Shown here: positions 4,283 to 21,804 of the stretch, one piece after another | How the letters are laid out: the number at the start of each line of letters is the position of its first letter | Numbering within the stretch: the stretch's first letter is position 1 | IMG/VR virus record: IMGVR_UViG_3300042291_001346 | Location: 1-61,166 of that record | Strand: one strand, 5' to 3' | Length of the DNA: 61,166 bases | Source: a virus | Taxonomy: Duplodnaviria > Caudoviricetes | Translations under genes and position numbers: made by a program | The notes under the pieces: model-generated | Told to the model about the DNA's origin: nothing | Database searches by the model: none | What the model saw: the letters and a program-made list of their open reading frames with translations, nothing else

Positions 4283-4735
4283 CTACAATTTCGGAAATTT
4301 AAATTTATGACTTTTTAATACTTTATGCGTTTCTGCATTATAAGTTATTACCATTCCATTGTTAACTTTCTGAAAAGTATCTATGCCCAGCTCTTTGTAC
4401 TTCTCTTTTGTAATCTTACCGTCTTCCTCGCTGATATCAGCTTTTGACATGTTAGATTCGTAAATTGCTTCAATAGTACTTACAGGATCAACTCCAAACT
4501 CCATCATTGCCCTTACAGTTACCCATAAAAGATCTCCAAGAGCATCCTTAGCATCTTTAATGTCTTTATGGTCTACTGCTTGTACAAGTTCCATAAACTC
4601 TTCGTCAATTAGATCTAAACATAATCTGGTTCTATACTCTTCAGGGAAACTTTCTGTAGTCTTAATTGGCAAGCTAAATGTTTTACTCCAGTTTTCAATC
4701 ATTTCGAAAACATCTTTCTGTTCTTTCTTCTTCAT
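4283..4735 (-). CDS. MazG-like / PRA-PH-family NTP pyrophosphohydrolase
   Basis: LIDEEFMEL..DALGDLLWV acidic motif, plus ESNMSK and KVLKS. Confidence 0.8.
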   Translation of the reverse strand: MKKKEQKDVFEMIENWSKTFSLPIKTTESFPEEYRTRLCLDLIDEEFMELVQAVDHKDIKDAKDALGDLLWVTVRAMMEFGVDPVSTIEAIYESNMSKADISEEDGKITKEKYKELGIDTFQKVNNGMVITYNAETHKVLKSHKFKFPKL

Positions 4736-4968: not shown

Positions 4969-5207
4969 ATCATATTGTGTTTAGTAAAATACTCTCCGAC
5001 TTCTCCAAGAGTATCAAATTTAATAATATCAAACTTAAGTTCTTGAAAATTATACTGTACTATGGATTTTTTCTTTACAGCTGATTCAAAATTACATATC
5101 TTACATACCCTGTTTCTTCCAAGGTCTGTCTTCAATGTATAGTGCCTCTTGTTCTCAGTAAAATTATCTAATGATAGCATCCTTTTACATTTAAAGCATT
5201 CTTTCAT
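4965..5207 (-). CDS. Small Zn-ribbon protein
   Basis: CFKC..CKIC; ATGA overlaps. Confidence 0.65.
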   Translation of the reverse strand: MKECFKCKRMLSLDNFTENKRHYTLKTDLGRNRVCKICNFESAVKKKSIVQYNFQELKFDIIKFDTLGEVGEYFTKHNMI

Positions 5208-5575
5208 AACAAATTCTCTATTTTATATTTGTAATAAAAGTCTATCTCTGCTTGAGATAAGCTCTCCCATGTATAAGGCTCCTCTTCTAGCATTTCCTTC
5301 TCAGTCTTAAAATCCCATAAAGTCTTTTTACCTAAGATAAAAGTAGATCTAACTTGTTTTTCTGGTACAGTAGTTCTATACTTAGCGTGAATGTGATCGT
5401 CAAATATTTTTTGAATAACTTCTCTACTAGCTCTATGCTTTGTGATAATTTCTGATAATAGTACTCCATCAATTAAATCTTTTTTAATATCCTCAATGTC
5501 TTGAAGAGTATAATTAATTTTATTGATGCCTTTTTTCCATTTACCAGTTAATTTTATAACCGCTTCCGTCTCCAT
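5204..5575 (-). CDS. Hypothetical protein, possible HTH
   Basis: GVLLSEIITKHRASREVIQKI helix pattern. Confidence 0.55.
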   Translation of the reverse strand: METEAVIKLTGKWKKGINKINYTLQDIEDIKKDLIDGVLLSEIITKHRASREVIQKIFDDHIHAKYRTTVPEKQVRSTFILGKKTLWDFKTEKEMLEEEPYTWESLSQAEIDFYYKYKIENLL

Positions 5576-6239
5576 ACAATTTTTTTATTAAATTATCTGC
5601 TTGTTTAAAATTAGGACAATTCCATTCTCTGTTTTCTTGTGCTGCTACACTTGGGCATTCCCACGTAAACACATGTTGATTAGTAAGTAAGGGAGAAAGT
5701 GCTTTAGCTTCCTCGCCCCATAAAAAGAATATAATCCCAGGATCATGCTGTACAAAAGACCGCAAAAGTGCGGTGGTAAATTGATTCCATGGTCGCAGAT
5801 GACTACCTGTTTCTTCTCCCATTACAGTAAAACTTGTGTGTAGGTGAACAACTCCTTGTGACTCCCAATGATCAAAATCATGATCGCATTGCAAATATAT
5901 CGAACTATCGCCACAATATTCTCTAGCAATGCAATCATAGATCTTGTGATAAGAGATATTGTGCATGCAGTCGATGTAGTTATCAGCATAAGGTAACTTA
6001 AAATTACTTGCGTTAATTCCTGGCTCCTTTGTGAGTATTACTACTCTTATTTTTTCTATGGGAATTTCTTTAAGTTTCTTAAAGATGTTAGACTCATGAG
6101 GATGAATCCTTTGCATAGCATACTGCATTGCTAAGAAGTTCATTAGCTTATCCATATAAGGACTCTTTAATGTTTCCTTCAGCCTCATAGCCCACTCTTC
6201 TCCTAACTTATCAACCCAGTATTGCTTTGTTTTACTCAT
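5541..6239 (-). CDS. Family-1 uracil-DNA glycosylase fold protein with non-canonical active site
   Basis: IRVVILTKEPG vs VKVVILGQDPY; HWESQGVVHLHTSFTV vs WAKQGVLLLNTVLTV; SH..W..FT; FFLWGEEA; CPS vs HPS; NFKQADNLI..INW end. Start placed at ATG 6239, just past the SPL stop. Confidence 0.8.
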   Translation of the reverse strand: MSKTKQYWVDKLGEEWAMRLKETLKSPYMDKLMNFLAMQYAMQRIHPHESNIFKKLKEIPIEKIRVVILTKEPGINASNFKLPYADNYIDCMHNISYHKIYDCIAREYCGDSSIYLQCDHDFDHWESQGVVHLHTSFTVMGEETGSHLRPWNQFTTALLRSFVQHDPGIIFFLWGEEAKALSPLLTNQHVFTWECPSVAAQENREWNCPNFKQADNLIKKLYGDGSGYKINW

Positions 6240-6241
6240 AT

Positions 6242-7105
6242 CTAAAAAATATAACGTATTGTGTTCCAAGGGATTATCTTCCCATGCATTTCTTTAAATT
6301 CTTGAATGTATCTACTTTTTAAGTCCCTACGATATCTAACGTTTTTACCGCCATAAGAAGAAATCTTTCCCTCTTGATTATCAGGGGTCCATAGTAACTC
6401 TTCGCCAGCAATTCCGTTAGCCATATTGTAATGATGTTTCTGTTCATTATGAGTAAGAAAGATAACCTCGGATTTAACGAGTTCCTTGTATTCTACATAT
6501 TGATCCATCATCATAAACAGTTCTTCGTAATCTTCTTGCCATCCGTCGTAAATAACTACAGGTGAATAATTAACATGCACATCGTATCCTGCCTCGATAA
6601 AGGCATCGATTGCTTTAATTCTATCAATAATTTCTGCAGTATTTGGCTCTAAGATACTAGATATTTTTTGAGGCATCAAACTAAATCTAATTCTCACCTT
6701 ATATTTAGGATTAAAATTTAGAAAACTAGTAGGCACAATCTTAGTAGCTAAAGTAGCTTTAGCAACAGGGTGGTCTCTAAAGAATTCAAATATCTTTTCC
6801 CAAGGATAGTACTTAGCGTGAAGAGCAAAGTCCTCATTGCATGCTAAATCATAAGTGATGTAAGTATCATCTGTTTGATTAGGCTTCTCTACATCAGCAT
6901 AAAAGTATGCATGGTTATTAATACTAGTTAGGATATCCCCAATGTTCTTTGCTACAGATAAACCTTCAGGTTTGTGCCTCTTCATATAGCAATATGAGCA
7001 CTGTAGCAAGCAGCCGTAGCCAAATGATGGAGTTATATAGTCACTAGATCTACCAGATTCTCTGATAGTAAAAGTTTTTCTGGTTACTTTTTCTAAAATA
7101 CTCAT
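6242..7105 (-). CDS. splB: Spore photoproduct lyase-like radical SAM enzyme
   Basis: GCLLQCSYCY (CxxxCxxC plus Tyr), YDLACNED (Cys141-equivalent), RIRFSL, DRIKAI, SPVVIYDGWQEDY. True start is likely ATG 7105. Confidence 0.85.
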   Translation of the reverse strand: MSILEKVTRKTFTIRESGRSSDYITPSFGYGCLLQCSYCYMKRHKPEGLSVAKNIGDILTSINNHAYFYADVEKPNQTDDTYITYDLACNEDFALHAKYYPWEKIFEFFRDHPVAKATLATKIVPTSFLNFNPKYKVRIRFSLMPQKISSILEPNTAEIIDRIKAIDAFIEAGYDVHVNYSPVVIYDGWQEDYEELFMMMDQYVEYKELVKSEVIFLTHNEQKHHYNMANGIAGEELLWTPDNQEGKISSYGGKNVRYRRDLKSRYIQEFKEMHGKIIPWNTIRYIF

Positions 7106-7195: not shown

Positions 7196-7220
7196 AAAAA
7201 AGGGGAGCTTAAAACTCCCC
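7196..7220 (-). terminator. Intrinsic terminator overlapping the stop of ORF 7209-7829
   Basis: GGGGAG-TTTTAAG-CTCCCC followed by a T run. Confidence 0.75.
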
Positions 7221-7829
7221 TGTTGGTGATAATTCTTTTTTTGTCGTAATCCTAGACATGATAGAATCATTCAATTCTTCATTTTCCGACTCGATAATTG
7301 GCCATACTTCTTGATCTTTTAGTTCTGCTGGGGATCCAGGTGTACTTAACCTTTCTTCCCAACTGTTTTTGAGTGCCTCTGCTTTATTCAAAATCAACGG
7401 TAAGGTAAATGCTTTACCAGAAAAGAAATTATTCAGTAGAATAGCTTTCTTTGCTTCCGCACTTACTTCAGAATATTTACCGTTTTTGATTAAATTAAAA
7501 TCTTTTTGGCGTTTCTCAGGAACATTAAAGATAAAGATGCAACAGCCTTGACTATCATAATCATCTACATAATTTGGAAATGCTTGAAGAGTTGTATAAA
7601 ATCTATCATAATCTACATCTTGATAATTTTTAACCACTATAAACACATAGTCTACATCTGCTTCATTGTACTTGTTAATACATTTATTCTTGCTGAAAGC
7701 ATTTATAAATCTATTATTAATCTTAGTACGTCCGAATACATCTTTGATATTACAATCAAAGAGTGACTTAGGTATGTTTAATAGTGGAAAAAGAAAAGTT
7801 GCAGTTTTGGTAAATTTTAGTTGACTCAT
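7209..7829 (-). CDS. Hypothetical phage protein
   Basis: 206 aa ORF, ATGA-coupled to the nuclease gene. Confidence 0.75.
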   Translation of the reverse strand: MSQLKFTKTATFLFPLLNIPKSLFDCNIKDVFGRTKINNRFINAFSKNKCINKYNEADVDYVFIVVKNYQDVDYDRFYTTLQAFPNYVDDYDSQGCCIFIFNVPEKRQKDFNLIKNGKYSEVSAEAKKAILLNNFFSGKAFTLPLILNKAEALKNSWEERLSTPGSPAELKDQEVWPIIESENEELNDSIMSRITTKKELSPTGEF

Positions 7830-8845
7830 AATGTAATAGGCATTTTTCCATTTAATTGATAATACTCCATAGGATATTCCCAGGCATTGTTTTCATGAGC
7901 ATATTTATATCTCAAGATAGCTTGTTCAAAGCCTTCATACTCTCGGTTAAATACTAAACCTCCTTCTAAACCTATTTTTATAATATTTTTAGATACTTCA
8001 AATACCATGGGAGAGTTGTATAACTCAGTTTCGACTACAATGTACAAGAAATTAAGTAGCTTATATCCTTTGTCTATCAGCTCTTTAATCTCAGGATGTT
8101 TAGATAGGCCCAAAGTATACACTGCTGCTTGGAAATCATATCTGTACTTCCAGAAATCACTGTTGAACATGCCAACAGTTTTGCCTGTAGACTTGAAGTC
8201 AATTGGTTGAATAGTTTGAGTATTATGATCTATAATAACTCTATCTAATTCACCTTTGAAATTTAATAATTTATGTTCAAAAGCCACAATAAATTTATCT
8301 AAAATGTCGATATTCTTACCAGGCTTCTTTACACAATAAGGAGCAGTAAACTTATCTCCTCGTAATGCCATTGTGCAATTGGTTGCTTTTGCATAATCAG
8401 TTTGAGTAATTAAAGACTTACCCTCTGATAATATTTTAATAGCCATATACTGATTACCTGCTTTAATCATAGCATCTATTCTAGTATCGTCTTTCCAATT
8501 GCCTTGATAGTTTTGAAATTTAACATGTTTTAAGATAATATCTCTTTGGGTATCCCACGTGCCTAAATCTGCTTTTGCCTCTATCAATTCTTCATAGATA
8601 TTGTCTAGTATAACTTTAACGGCATCGGTGACTCCCATACTATCTGGTACAATAGCAAACTTGCTATTGAATTCTTCTCTTGTGCTAGTCAACATTAAGT
8701 CTATAGCACTCCCTAAAATAAAGTGATCCTCAGTAGATGCCTCACGAGCCTCCATCTTCTTTACTGCTTGTAAAAAAGATTGAGGGCTCGTAAGTATTTT
8801 CTTTAGAGTACTTTGATTTAGAGCTCTTATTTCTCTATAATCCAT
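7826..8845 (-). CDS. PD-(D/E)XK exonuclease (RecE/ExoVIII-like)
   Basis: LNQSTLK, GSAID, KGELDRV..IDFKST, YRYDFQAAVY. Confidence 0.85.
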   Translation of the reverse strand: MDYREIRALNQSTLKKILTSPQSFLQAVKKMEAREASTEDHFILGSAIDLMLTSTREEFNSKFAIVPDSMGVTDAVKVILDNIYEELIEAKADLGTWDTQRDIILKHVKFQNYQGNWKDDTRIDAMIKAGNQYMAIKILSEGKSLITQTDYAKATNCTMALRGDKFTAPYCVKKPGKNIDILDKFIVAFEHKLLNFKGELDRVIIDHNTQTIQPIDFKSTGKTVGMFNSDFWKYRYDFQAAVYTLGLSKHPEIKELIDKGYKLLNFLYIVVETELYNSPMVFEVSKNIIKIGLEGGLVFNREYEGFEQAILRYKYAHENNAWEYPMEYYQLNGKMPITL

Positions 8846-19368: not shown

Positions 19369-19807
19369 ATTTTTCTATTTTTTGTAGTGCAAAACGTCTT
19401 ACATACTTGTTTTTATTAATACTTAATTCATCGTAATCTCTTCCACTATAAGTTACAGGATATACACCATCTTTCATCCATTGTTTGTAAGAAGCTTTAA
19501 CTGTTTTTACTACATATGGTTGACTTTTTGCTTTAATATTTTTAGATACATTGCAATAGGTAATACCAAACATTCTGCCCATTTCTGAATAAGAAAATCC
19601 TTCTTTGTGCAATCTTTTTGCTGTTACTCTACGCAATTCAACCATATAAATATTAACTACATTTCTTAAAGGTTTAAAATAAAGTTCTAGTTGTTTTAAT
19701 TCTGTAAGTCTCTCTATCTCTTTATGTAATTGAGATATTCTGTCTTCATAAGAAGTTGTTTCTAATTTTATTGATACTCCCATAATTTTTAGTTTTAATG
19801 TTGCCAT
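19313..19807 (-). CDS. HTH-containing protein
   Basis: GFSYSEMGRMFGITYCNVSK helix-turn-helix. Confidence 0.6.
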   Translation of the reverse strand: MATLKLKIMGVSIKLETTSYEDRISQLHKEIERLTELKQLELYFKPLRNVVNIYMVELRRVTAKRLHKEGFSYSEMGRMFGITYCNVSKNIKAKSQPYVVKTVKASYKQWMKDGVYPVTYSGRDYDELSINKNKYVRRFALQKIEKYANKNPSAIYSYEYNSIQ

Positions 19808-21804
19808 TGATGGGTCACCATCGGTTCTGCTTTTAATTTTACTACCGTACAGAATACTTTACCAGCTTCTTCCATGCACAGTTGCAATTGATCCTTGATA
19901 ACATCACTCATATTTTCAGGACATTCTACTATCCATTCATCATGAACGACATTAGGCATTTTCACAGTAAAAACTAGATTATTGGCTACAAGATAACGAA
20001 AAAAATACACACCTGCAAGCTTTGTGATGTCCGCAGAAGTACCTTGAATAGGATAATTCAAGGACATACGCTCAATATCACCTTTTTTCATAAAATACTC
20101 TCGTACTTTAGGCTTGTAGTGATTAATAAATGTGTCTGTATTCCTTGCTTTATGGTCCTTATAATCATCCCAGAATCCTTTTGTATTGTAGATATCTTCG
20201 TGAAGCTTTTTGTATTCTTCAAAATAAGGAATAAAACATTTACGATTACTCACACCATTAAATTGTATATAACCCAACTCTAGTGCTCGTTTCTTCTCTT
20301 GTTTAAAATAATCAGCTAATCCTGGAAAAGCTTTAAAATATGCTGTGTAAACTGCTTCACCTTCTTCTAAGGGTATGCTCAAATTTTGCGCAATAGTTAT
20401 ACCTGTACCGCCATAGTTAATAGCGAAACCTGCAGATTTTGCAATTTGTCTCTTACCCTTATGCTTATCTTTAATTTCATCTAAAGTGAGTTGTGACAAC
20501 TCAGGAAATATTTTAGACGCAATAAAGCTGTGCATATCACCCAACCCTTGGCTGTAGAAATACAGTAAGTCAGGATCTAAAGACTTGTTAGCAAGTACAA
20601 TCTGCTCTTGCCCGCTATAGTCGCTTACTATTAGTACATTGCCAGGCTCAGATTGAAAGCAACTTCTAGTTCGTTTGTCGCTTGGTATATTTTGCATGTT
20701 AGGTGCTTGAGGAATACCACGTTTTCTATCTCCTTTCTGGCCACTAGACAATCTGCCTGTGTTCATAATTTGAGTATAGTTACTATGTATTCTACCTGTA
20801 GCTTTATTAATATATCCAAACCAGTTCTCACCATAAGTACTCACAACCTTTTGATGCTCAGTATACTCTATGTAAGTCCCAATGATAGGATGCTTAGACT
20901 TTTGAGGGCCTAACACTTTCTTATCTACTGAATCCTTAAATAATCCTGTGTCTTTGTCTTTAGTTAAAGTGTCTACACCTAAAGATTTCATAAACGGAAT
21001 TACTTGTTTAGAAGAGGCCCAGTTTAACTTGCATGTCACACCTTCAGAAAATAAACTCAATTGGTTATTTACAAACTCAGGATATTTAGCAGAGTTATCT
21101 AGAATATATTGATCAAGTATTTGCTTTACAGCTTCTAAATCTTTTTGATCATCTTCACATTTCTTGCGCCAGTCTTCGCTATTCATATAGAATCCACAGA
21201 ATTCTATGTAAGCCAGGACTATAGCAAACTCATTGTCAAGAGTCATAGTTCTAGTAAGATTCAGTTCCTTCAGTGCTACTTCTTGTTTACGTTTTACCTG
21301 ATGTAAATACTTCACATCATCAGCAGCATATTTAATTACTCTAGTGGATAAACCTTCTCTATGAATGTTACCTCTAATAGTTTTATCAAGTTCAATTTTG
21401 CAATACTTATACACTACTGCATCTAATGAGCGTCTTGCTGTGTCGATACCTGTAGTCAGGATTCTCTCAGCTAAGAAGCTATCATATACTTTAGTAGGTA
21501 TAATTCCATAATAGAATAAAAATCTAACGTCGAATTTAGCATTATGCATGATTAGCATTTTGCTTTCTAGTAGATCTTTATAAGCTCTAGGATCTACAGT
21601 TGTACAGTCAACAACATATTGTCGTTGCTGATCACCTAATTGCATAGATAATAAAGCTTTAGTAAATGGGTCCAAGCCCATAGTCTCAGTATCGAAACCT
21701 ATAATATTTAAGGTTTGTAGATACTCTAACGATTCTTCAACACTAGCCAAAGAATAACCAGGCGCCGTAAACAACGACGCTTGGTTAGTTACTAAATAAA
21801 TCAC
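19795..21804 (-). CDS. polA: DNA polymerase family A with 3'-5' exonuclease
   Basis: FDTET, HNAKFD, YAADD, TGRLSS, DYSGQE, RQIAKSAGFAINYG, NYPIQG, VHDE; GTG start. Confidence 0.95.
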   Translation of the reverse strand: MIYLVTNQASLFTAPGYSLASVEESLEYLQTLNIIGFDTETMGLDPFTKALLSMQLGDQQRQYVVDCTTVDPRAYKDLLESKMLIMHNAKFDVRFLFYYGIIPTKVYDSFLAERILTTGIDTARRSLDAVVYKYCKIELDKTIRGNIHREGLSTRVIKYAADDVKYLHQVKRKQEVALKELNLTRTMTLDNEFAIVLAYIEFCGFYMNSEDWRKKCEDDQKDLEAVKQILDQYILDNSAKYPEFVNNQLSLFSEGVTCKLNWASSKQVIPFMKSLGVDTLTKDKDTGLFKDSVDKKVLGPQKSKHPIIGTYIEYTEHQKVVSTYGENWFGYINKATGRIHSNYTQIMNTGRLSSGQKGDRKRGIPQAPNMQNIPSDKRTRSCFQSEPGNVLIVSDYSGQEQIVLANKSLDPDLLYFYSQGLGDMHSFIASKIFPELSQLTLDEIKDKHKGKRQIAKSAGFAINYGGTGITIAQNLSIPLEEGEAVYTAYFKAFPGLADYFKQEKKRALELGYIQFNGVSNRKCFIPYFEEYKKLHEDIYNTKGFWDDYKDHKARNTDTFINHYKPKVREYFMKKGDIERMSLNYPIQGTSADITKLAGVYFFRYLVANNLVFTVKMPNVVHDEWIVECPENMSDVIKDQLQLCMEEAGKVFCTVVKLKAEPMVTHQWQH

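What the first reader, a model, noticed from the sequence alone, without database searches (positions are those of the whole stretch)
5541..6239. UDG-fold protein with every uracil-pocket residue substituted
Seen by eye alignment to family-1 UNG: GQDPY becomes TKEPG (catalytic Asp to Glu, thymine-excluding Tyr to Gly), LLLN becomes VHLH (uracil-reading Asn to His), and HPS becomes CPS, while the scaffold motifs persist. Established: human UNG Y147A excises thymine and N204D excises cytosine. Inference: this is a natural specificity switch towards 5-substituted or damaged pyrimidines, or a non-catalytic lesion sensor, rather than simple decay.
Basis: partly seen in the sequence, partly recalled or inferred. 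Interest (0 to 1): 0.8.

Follow-up and report, generated by a model that had tools for sequence, protein, structure and literature searches.

The report
Phage UNG-fold protein with eroded pocket
A conserved gene of an uncultured crAss-related phage keeps the uracil-DNA glycosylase fold but has lost the residues that recognise and cut out uracil, so it probably works without glycosylase catalysis.

Summary
Window 5541-6239 (- strand, 232 aa) is a family-1 UNG homologue (PDB UNGs E 2.5e-18; AF2 pLDDT 89.4, Foldseek TM 0.73-0.78 to UNGs only). Asp, Tyr, Asn and His of the uracil pocket are replaced by Glu72, Gly74, His134 and Cys195.

It is not decaying. dN/dS is 0.08-0.25 in 15 pairs, and 36 viral loci carry it in the same replication/recombination module.

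The new pocket is not a conserved new specificity. TKEPG/HLH/C(P/S)S is kept only in the focal subclade (at least 66% identity). Syntenic orthologues run from canonical DYNH (L014) through KYNH, QHND, GSNH, EGNS and EGPS to EGHC. Among 181 relatives the catalytic Asp changed at least 28 times.

The adjacent SPL-family radical SAM gene is a mobile accessory. It is present in 17 of 36 loci and is unrelated to pocket state.

Best reading (about 0.5): a UNG-derived protein kept for a role that does not need catalysis, like poxvirus D4 or the catalytically dead UDG domain of N4-like phage polymerases. No partner is shown. An altered-specificity glycosylase is not excluded.

The parts
5541..6239 (-). 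UNG-like protein ('UNGL', 232 aa). It has the family-1 UNG fold with pocket residues Lys71, Glu72, Gly74, His132, His134, Cys195 and Ala199.
6242..7105 (-). SPL-family radical SAM protein (287 aa; a longer 342-aa frame runs to 7270). The CxxxCxxC cluster motif and the Cys aligned with the SPL H-donor Cys are kept. It lies 2 nt upstream of UNGL. It is an accessory gene and not an obligate partner.
   Evidence: TIGR03886 E 2.5e-92, 309.7 bits (cut-off 437.55); PDB SPL 4fhc E 4.9e-11; present in 17 of 36 loci
7209..7829 (-). p206, a conserved protein of unknown fold. In the ancestral arrangement it lies directly upstream of UNGL (gap -13 to +4 nt in 9 loci).
   Evidence: no Pfam, PHROG or NCBIfam hit; found in 33 of 36 loci; AF2 pLDDT 85.3, no PDB fold match (best E 0.035); gaps
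7826..8845 (-). PD-(D/E)XK exonuclease (exonuclease VIII-like), part of the conserved module
   Evidence: PF12684 E 4.8e-07, phrog_412 E 8.3e-21; found in 32 of 36 loci
5204..5575 (-). p123, a small protein whose start overlaps the UNGL 3' end by 35 nt. It is detectably conserved downstream of UNGL in 16 of 36 loci.
4283..4735 (-). MazG/PRA-PH-type nucleotide pyrophosphohydrolase at the downstream end of the module
   Evidence: PF01503 E 8.3e-11, phrog_671 E 2.7e-21; found in 14 of 36 loci
19795..21804 (-). Family A DNA polymerase with 3'-5' exonuclease. It is a candidate docking partner, and this is inferred only.
   Evidence: PF00476 E 1.7e-57, PF01612 E 1.7e-23; 74-78% identical in relatives whose UNGL is 44-48% identical

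Best explanation
UNGL descends from a genuine family-1 uracil-DNA glycosylase that an ancestor of this crAss-related phage lineage carried in its replication/recombination module (PD-(D/E)XK exonuclease, p206, UNGL, p123, MazG). In this lineage glycosylase catalysis became dispensable. The uracil pocket eroded step by step: Asp to Glu, then loss of Tyr, then loss of His, then Asn to Pro or His. The fold, its N-terminal helices and its hydrophobic core stayed under purifying selection.

The protein is therefore most likely kept for a role that needs the UNG scaffold but not uracil excision. By analogy with poxvirus D4, gamma-herpesvirus UNG and the catalytically dead UDG domain of N4-like phage polymerases, I infer a structural accessory role at the replication or recombination machinery.

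Shown: homology, fold, substitutions, synteny, purifying selection and the lability of the pocket. Inferred: loss of glycosylase activity, and the accessory role. No partner and no DNA binding is shown.
For: (1) The fold and family are secure.

(2) It is a core gene:
- 36 IMG/VR loci carry it at the same place, with p206 upstream in 33 and the exonuclease in 32. The exceptions have truncated flanks.
- All 5 long records examined hold exactly one copy and no second UDG-superfamily gene.
- The association with the exonuclease extends to Cellulophaga phage phi14:2 and crAss001.

(3) Purifying selection acts whatever the pocket state. dN/dS is 0.08-0.25 in 15 pairs, including K-, Q- and E-state subclades.

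(4) Pocket lability:
- Of 181 non-redundant relatives, 59 have the canonical quartet DYNH.
- The catalytic position is E 80, D 67, Q 7, K 6, G 6, S 6 and others.
- On the tree there are at least 28 Asp/non-Asp changes, 16 for Tyr, 11 for Asn and 25 for His.
- Inside the 60-row syntenic clade the Tyr and His columns rank 146 and 158 of 224 by number of changes.

(5) Direction of change. Outgroups and basal L014 are DYNH. Nested clades with 100, 98 and 100% SH-aLRT support lose Tyr, then His and Asn. The window lies in the most derived clade.

(6) The Phe-bearing strand is not modelled (residues 77-90, pLDDT below 50), and the Leu wedge is Ala.

(7) Precedents in print:
Against: - A carboxylate is still there: Glu in 43 of 60 clade members, 11 changes against a median of 16.
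- Asn is kept in 38 of 60. So the pocket is not fully free to drift.
- Glu is a catalytic residue in an active phage UDG domain of another UDG family (phiLo E53, passages of PMC13697223).
- UDG families 2 and 3 work without the Tyr and His of family 1 (recalled knowledge, from no call). So glycosylase activity cannot be excluded from sequence.
- Within the focal subclade the derived residues are themselves conserved through synonymous changes, as expected if they do something.
- No interaction with the polymerase or any other protein has been shown.
- No fused form was found (weak evidence).
- Non-canonical members are less basic than canonical ones (median pI 6.79 against 8.18; window 6.41). 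This does not favour a DNA-clamping role of the D4 kind.
Confidence: 0.5

Rival explanations
1. UNGL is an active DNA glycosylase whose pocket has been retuned. Gly in place of Tyr opens room at C5. Glu acts as general base. His134 reads the base. The target would be a 5-substituted, damaged or otherwise modified pyrimidine, in the phage's own repair or against host or competitor DNA.
For: - Glu72 keeps the carboxylate, and Pro73 is kept in 50 of 60 clade members.
- The derived residues are conserved with synonymous codon changes in the subclade.
- Y147A and N204D change the specificity of human UNG (passages of PMC11162499).
- UDG-superfamily enzymes with new specificities exist: Brig1, Brig2 and Brig3 (passages of PMC13160076).
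- The wider radiation contains recurrent, apparently non-random states such as E-Y-D-H in 5 of 181.
Against: - The proposed new pocket is confined to 8 sequences.
- Sister clades at the same locus have Pro at the Asn position and Ser at the His position. Others have Lys, Gln or Gly at the catalytic position.
- The leaving-group His is lost, the Phe strand is unmodelled and there is no Leu wedge.
- No thymidylate-synthase-like (PF00303, PF02511) or dUTPase (PF00692) gene was found in the window or in 4 long relatives. All five are only 46-70% complete, so this is weak.
- There is no PADLOC hit.
Confidence: 0.27
2. UNGL works with the adjacent SPL-family radical SAM enzyme. It would flip or present a thymine-derived lesion (spore photoproduct) or a thymine to be modified.
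For: - There is a 2-nt gap between the two genes in the window.
- When the SPL gene is present it always lies within about 1.3 kb of UNGL, upstream in 12 loci and downstream in 5.
- An SPL-like radical SAM enzyme does act in phage thymidine hypermodification: M6 gp53 (passages of PMC8989533).
Against: - The SPL gene is absent from 19 of 36 loci that keep UNGL. Two of these have under 1.1 kb of upstream flank.
- It occurs with canonical DYNH (L014) and with six other pocket states.
- L031 lacks it while L034 and L036, with nearly the same UNGL (dS 0.2), have it.
- It sits in an insertion hot spot whose length varies from -13 to 2715 nt.
- It is far more conserved than its neighbours (57-80% against 36-44% for UNGL), as expected for a horizontally moving gene.
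- No 5-hmU pathway genes were seen.
Confidence: 0.06
3. UNGL is an ordinary uracil-DNA glycosylase, and the substitutions are tolerated variation.
For: Relatives are annotated 'uracil-DNA glycosylase' in public records. The overall fold is intact.
Against: All four specificity and catalytic residues are replaced, as are Gln144, the Leu wedge and the Phe strand. It scores 97 bits against the 185.75-bit equivalog cut-off of TIGR00628.
Confidence: 0.05

Closest known systems
[quoted passage not shown]
   Same: Full-length homology and fold. The N-terminal helices and the W..QGV, LWG and C-terminal W.C.NF scaffold motifs are shared.
   Different: Asp, Tyr, Asn, His, Gln and the Leu wedge are all replaced, and the Phe strand is not recognisable. 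The score is below the equivalog cut-offs.
Poxvirus D4 / mpox E4 and gamma-herpesvirus UNG (viral UNGs used as replisome parts)
   Same: A virus-encoded family-1-type UNG located among replication genes, with a role that does not need catalysis (abstracts of PMC1936997 and PMC5934625).
   Different: As far as I recall (from no call), those proteins keep their catalytic residues and remain active glycosylases. Their partners (A20, polymerase) are known. Here the residues are gone and no partner is known.
UDG domain of N4-like phage A-family DNA polymerases
   Same: [quoted passage not shown]
   Different: That domain is fused to the polymerase and is not family 1. In the same paper the related YerA41 domain is compared with MUG. 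UNGL is a separate gene 13.5 kb from PolA and is clearly family-1 derived.
crAss-like phage 'UDG' (for example crAss001 gp74, Cellulophaga phage phi14:2 gp053)
   Same: The same protein lineage and the same neighbourhood with a PD-(D/E)XK exonuclease. The window's PolA is 38-40% identical to crAss-like PolA.
   Different: crAss001 gp74 keeps GQDPY, the Asn and the His. phi14:2 already has Glu and Asp in place of Asp and His. The window's protein is the most derived state.
Brig1/Brig2/Brig3 defence glycosylases
   Same: UDG-superfamily proteins with changed base specificity (passages of PMC13160076).
   Different: Those are bacterial defence genes with defined new substrates. UNGL is a phage core gene, gives no PADLOC hit and has no conserved new pocket.

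Membership tests
Family-1 UNG (enzyme) | UNG alpha/beta fold and full-length sequence homology | tested here: met
   PDB phmmer E 2.5e-18. Foldseek TMq 0.70-0.78 to UNGs only in the rows shown.
Family-1 UNG (enzyme) | Score above the curated equivalog cut-off | tested here: not met
   TIGR00628 gives 97 bits against 185.75. Four NF00359x models are also below their cut-offs.
Family-1 UNG (enzyme) | Water-activating loop GQDPY with catalytic Asp and thymine-excluding Tyr | tested here: not met
   The loop is TKEPG: Lys71, Glu72, Gly74.
Family-1 UNG (enzyme) | Uracil-reading Asn at the end of the LLLN strand | tested here: not met
   The strand reads VVHLH, with His134 at this position.
Family-1 UNG (enzyme) | HPSPLS loop with catalytic His and intercalating Leu | tested here: not met
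   The loop reads CPSVAA, with Cys195 and Ala199.
Family-1 UNG (enzyme) | Uracil-stacking Phe on the GLAF/GLCF strand | tested here: inconclusive
   There is no GLAF-type motif. Residues 77-90 have pLDDT below 50.
Family-1 UNG (enzyme) | Uracil excision activity | not testable with these tools
   This needs a biochemical assay.
Catalysis-independent viral UDG-fold replisome parts (D4-like, N4-like PolA UDG domain) | UDG-fold protein encoded among replication genes of a virus | tested here: met
   The module also holds PolA, a DnaB-like helicase, a primase, an exonuclease and MazG on the same strand. Synteny holds in 36 loci.
Catalysis-independent viral UDG-fold replisome parts (D4-like, N4-like PolA UDG domain) | Retention under selection although catalytic residues are dispensable or lost | tested here: met
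   dN/dS is 0.08-0.25. There are at least 28 changes at the catalytic Asp.
Catalysis-independent viral UDG-fold replisome parts (D4-like, N4-like PolA UDG domain) | Physical association with the DNA polymerase or its cofactor | not tested
   Complex prediction gave no result: the job was lost and the machine was then unreachable (and later).
Modified-base glycosylases of the UDG superfamily (Brig-like) | A new pocket conserved across the family | tested here: not met
   The pocket quartet differs between sister clades.
SPL-coupled system | Obligate co-occurrence of UNGL with the SPL-family radical SAM gene | tested here: not met
   They co-occur in 17 of 36 loci. There is no relation to pocket state.

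The most novel reading that the evidence does not exclude
In the focal subclade the former uracil pocket may have been rebuilt into a metal-binding or otherwise new reactive site.

The branch leading to the subclade gained two histidines in an H-x-H arrangement on the pocket strand (His132, His134). They sit next to Cys195 and Glu72, which are the positions of the old His and Asp. All four are kept in all 8 members, through synonymous codon changes.

That would make this a family-1 UNG scaffold re-used for new chemistry or for recognition of a bulky thymine lesion. More broadly, the phage UNG radiation (122 of 181 non-canonical quartets) would be a natural library of pocket redesigns and not a collection of dead enzymes.
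Probability: 0.12. Interest if true: 0.8.

Novelty: new variant of a known kind. Interest (0 to 1): 0.45.

Why it matters
Genes of this lineage are annotated as 'uracil-DNA glycosylase' in crAss-like and related phages. This analysis shows that the annotation is unsafe for a large part of a phage-associated radiation. Only 59 of 181 close relatives keep the canonical catalytic quartet, yet the gene is a conserved part of the replication/recombination module and is under purifying selection.

It offers a natural series, at one genomic position, from a canonical enzyme (L014) to a fully substituted scaffold (the window). With it one can ask what a UNG fold does for a virus when it no longer cuts uracil. 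That question has so far been studied mainly in poxviruses and herpesviruses.

If the role is structural, the series extends the 'UDG as replisome part' theme to family-1 proteins encoded in trans in abundant environmental phages.

My searches found no paper that describes this. They covered only the open-access library, and no supplements were read.

Tried and rejected
Thymidine hypermodification. I first suspected that UNGL might be the glycosylase-fold transferase of such a pathway. This is rejected. Passages of PMC8989533 state that aGPT-Pplases have a helix-hairpin-helix fold, not a UDG fold. No PF00303 or PF02511 gene was found in the window or in 4 relatives, all of them fragments of 46-70% completeness.

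SPL partnership. Rejected as an obligate system.

Covalent Cys adduct of the UdgX kind. Cys195 is present in 11 of 181 relatives, so at most it is a subclade feature.

Defence gene. There is no PADLOC hit for UNGL, the SPL-family protein or p206. p123 gives a weak AbiEii hit at E 1e-4, which I do not trust.

Polymerase docking. The job was lost on the remote machine. There is therefore no result and it bears on nothing.

Fused forms. None were found among proteins of 407-2000 aa for the window protein (weak evidence). Tandem UDG-UDG proteins and one HhH-GPD+UDG fusion exist among more distant relatives.

Bacterial or prophage copies. None were found in the genome-contig collection (described as one genome for each of 185,579 species) with the A1 patterns.

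p206. The protein atlas gave no informative hit (best 0.89, unnamed clusters). The Foldseek PDB search gave no fold match.

D145E literature. No paper in the library holds this term together with uracil-DNA glycosylase.

Net charge. The shift to lower pI is crude and is used only as a caveat.

I had no model coordinates, so pocket geometry and the proposed metal site could not be examined.

Rows dropped. P0008, a 138-aa fragment, was left out of A1. For the 181-row set I dropped identical duplicates and sequences shorter than 195 aa or longer than 262 aa, which are fragments and fusions. A2 used the window and the first 140 of 149 proteins of 200-262 aa. A3 used 35 of the 120 listed polymerases.
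Full report
**What is there.** The window is an IMG/VR virus record of 61,166 bases, classed as linear and about 46% complete. It is 32-37% G+C.

- Genes on the - strand between about 3 and 22 kb form a replication/recombination block: family A DNA polymerase with proofreading domain (19795-21804), an SF2 helicase, a DnaB-like helicase, a Toprim primase, an AAA ATPase, a DUF2201 metallopeptidase-like protein, a PD-(D/E)XK exonuclease (7826-8845), and a MazG/PRA-PH pyrophosphohydrolase (4283-4735).
- The + strand from 30 kb carries terminase, portal and major head protein genes.
- The polymerase is 48% identical to that of Leptolyngbya phage Lbo-JY46 and 38-40% identical to crAss-like phage polymerases. 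It has thousands of close metagenomic relatives.
- So this is an uncultured tailed phage whose replication genes are crAss-related.

**The observation.** The finding's ORF (5541-6239, - strand, 232 aa) is a full-length family-1 UNG homologue.

- phmmer against PDB returns 45 sequences, all uracil-DNA glycosylases, the best at E 2.5e-18.
- TIGR00628 matches at E 1.4e-27 but 97 bits, far below its 185.75-bit cut-off.
- Pfam UDG sits exactly on its cut-off.
- An AlphaFold2 model built on 141 sequences has pLDDT 89.4. The Foldseek rows shown are all family-1 UNGs, at TMq 0.70-0.78.
- They add three more. Gln becomes Lys71. The Leu wedge becomes Ala199. The Phe-bearing strand is replaced by a segment (residues 77-90) that is the only part of the model below pLDDT 50.

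**Relatives and context.**

- A word-indexed search found 15 proteins, itself included, at 40-100% identity. In their alignment Glu72 is invariant. The Tyr position is G8/H2/E1/N1/S1/I1, the Asn position N7/P4/H3 and the His position C4/S4/H3/N2/D1 (14 sequences).
- A scan of IMG/VR gave 36 loci. In them the gene always lies in the same module: exonuclease (32 of 36), p206 (33 of 36), then UNGL, then in part of them p123 (16) and MazG (14). The loci that lack the upstream genes have truncated flanks.
- Parts of the same association are seen in Cellulophaga phage phi14:2 (UDG, exonuclease-like, p206-like, MazG) and in crAss001 (UDG gp74 near the PD-(D/E)XK exonuclease gp70).
- Each of five long records holds one copy and no other UDG-superfamily gene.
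- No copy was found in the bacterial and archaeal species genomes of genome contigs with the family's patterns.

**Selection.**

- dN/dS by Nei-Gojobori is 0.076-0.134 between the window and L002, L003 and L005. It is 0.08-0.25 in all 15 pairs tested, including subclades with Lys or Gln at the catalytic position.
- UNGL diverges about as fast as its neighbours or somewhat faster (for example L009: exonuclease 49, p206 53, UNGL 48%; L024: 50, 59, 39%). It diverges much faster than the polymerase (74-78% where UNGL is 44-48%).
- Within the focal subclade the codons of T70, K71, E72, P73, G74, H132 and L133 differ synonymously while the residues stay the same.
- The gene is functional and not decaying.

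**The pocket is labile.**

- At the orthologous position the four key residues (catalytic Asp, Tyr, Asn, His) read: DYNH in L014, with an intact GQDPY; DANH in L030; KYNH in L015, L018 and L037; KHNH in L022; QHND in L019-L026; GSNH in L032; EYNG in L031 and L034-36; ENNH, ESNH, EGNH and EHNH in others; EGNS and EGNC; EGPS and EGPC; EEPD; and EGHC in the window's subclade only.
- An exhaustive profile search found 11,372 proteins at E<=0.001 and 279 at E<=1e-30.
- Of 181 non-redundant sequences (window, loci and the best representatives), 59 have DYNH. The catalytic position is E 80, D 67, Q 7, K 6, G 6, S 6 and others.
- On a FastTree tree the minimum numbers of canonical/non-canonical changes are 28 (Asp), 16 (Tyr), 11 (Asn) and 25 (His).
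- All syntenic loci fall in one 60-row clade (support 99). An IQ-TREE run of that clade with outgroups gives the same nesting. DYNH lies outside and at the base. A 41-row clade (100) lacks the Tyr. Inside it a 16-row clade (98) has lost His and Asn. Inside that is the 6-row focal clade (100).
- Within the 60 rows the Tyr and His columns change 19 and 20 times (median column 16). The catalytic column changes 11 times (E in 43 of 60). The Asn column changes 5 times (N in 38 of 60).
- The least variable columns are the N-terminal helices (W8, G13, W16, L20, L24, Y28), F53, Q128-G129, W151, F154, W206, F211 and W232.
- Hence the scaffold is constrained, two pocket positions are free, and two are partly constrained.

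**The neighbouring radical SAM gene.**

- Window 6242-7105 is a member of the SPL family (TIGR03886 E 2.5e-92, below the cut-off).
- It has the CxxxCxxC motif and a Cys aligned with the Cys in the AAC-TSD segment of the solved SPL. The role of that Cys as H-atom donor is recalled, from no call.
- It is present in 17 of 36 loci, upstream of UNGL in 12 and downstream in 5.
- It lies in a stretch between p206 and UNGL whose length runs from -13 to 2715 nt and which holds other small ORFs in other phages.
- L031 lacks it, while the closely related L034 and L036 have it.
- It is 57-80% identical between phages whose flanking genes are 36-59% identical.
- It occurs with seven different pocket states, including the canonical one.
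- It is therefore a mobile accessory gene and not an obligate partner.

**Interpretation.** The most economical reading is that an ancestral, active phage UNG became dispensable as an enzyme but not as a protein.

Precedents for UDG-fold proteins serving viral replisomes independently of catalysis are in print:
- vaccinia D4 (abstract of PMC1936997);
- gamma-herpesvirus UNG (abstract of PMC5934625);
- the UDG domain of N4-like phage polymerases, which has lost its catalytic residues;
- the suggestion that UDGs encoded in trans dock on A-family polymerases (passages of PMC13697223).

I commit to this reading at about 0.5. The role itself is inferred. No partner is shown, the complex prediction could not be obtained, and the lower pI of non-canonical members argues against a simple DNA-clamp function.

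An altered-specificity glycosylase (about 0.27) remains possible for several reasons:
- A carboxylate and often the Asn persist.
- Other UDG families work with different residues.
- Specificity can be switched by single changes (PMC11162499).
- UDG-superfamily enzymes for modified bases exist (PMC13160076).

Against that reading, the window's particular pocket is a subclade feature and not a family feature.

**Novelty.** This is a new variant of a known kind: a family-1, trans-encoded, pocket-eroded UNG scaffold in an abundant environmental phage lineage. My literature searches found no description of it. They cover only the open library held here, and I read passages and abstracts, not whole papers or supplements.

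Noticed in passing
window 6242-7105 (-); L002-L005, L010, L011, L014, L016, L019-L021, L023, L024, L026, L034-L036: A phage-borne SPL-family radical SAM gene (TIGR03886-like, cluster motif and aligned Cys kept). It moves between related phages: present or absent between near-identical genomes, and 57-80% identical where neighbours are 36-59%. It could repair spore-photoproduct-type damage in densely packed virion DNA. That is speculation.
   Followed up: partly
L019:7202-8070 and L002:4170-4580: In L019 the SPL-family gene is split into two frames (7202-7858 and 7918-8070), while L020 has it whole. L002 carries an extra 136-aa SPL-like fragment upstream of the full copy.
   Followed up: no
window 7209-7829 (-): p206 is conserved in 33 of 36 loci and directly abuts UNGL in the ancestral arrangement. 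It folds confidently (pLDDT 85.3) but matches no Pfam, PHROG or NCBIfam family and no PDB fold (best E 0.035). It is an orphan fold in a recombination module.
   Followed up: partly
proteins P0067, P0086, P0095, P0109, P0159 (and P0075): These are natural UNG-like proteins with Asp at the uracil-reading Asn position together with Glu at the catalytic position (quartet E-Y-D-H; E-F-D-H in P0075). That is the substitution that makes human UNG excise cytosine. Four of them group together on the tree.
   Followed up: no
L015, L018, L037 (UNGL orthologues): The loop reads G-D-K-P-Y. The catalytic position is Lys but an Asp sits one residue earlier, at the Gln position. This may be a shifted carboxylate and not a loss.
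   Followed up: no
proteins P0036, P0080, P0093, P0070: These are tandem UDG-UDG proteins (438-512 aa) and one HhH-GPD glycosylase fused to two UDG stretches (712 aa), found among the relatives.
   Followed up: no
L001 (phi14:2 gp053), L040 (FPSV-S29), L039 (crAss001 gp74): Isolated phages' genes annotated 'uracil-DNA glycosylase' differ. crAss001 gp74 has the canonical residues. FPSV-S29 has Glu for the catalytic Asp. phi14:2 has Glu and also Asp for the His.
   Followed up: partly
record of L010 (G002:C1:16663-19626): The PolA orthologue is in two frames (residues 1-589 and 583-669), which suggests a frameshift or an assembly error. The Leptolyngbya phage PolA match is in two pieces around an annotated LAGLIDADG endonuclease.
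   Followed up: no
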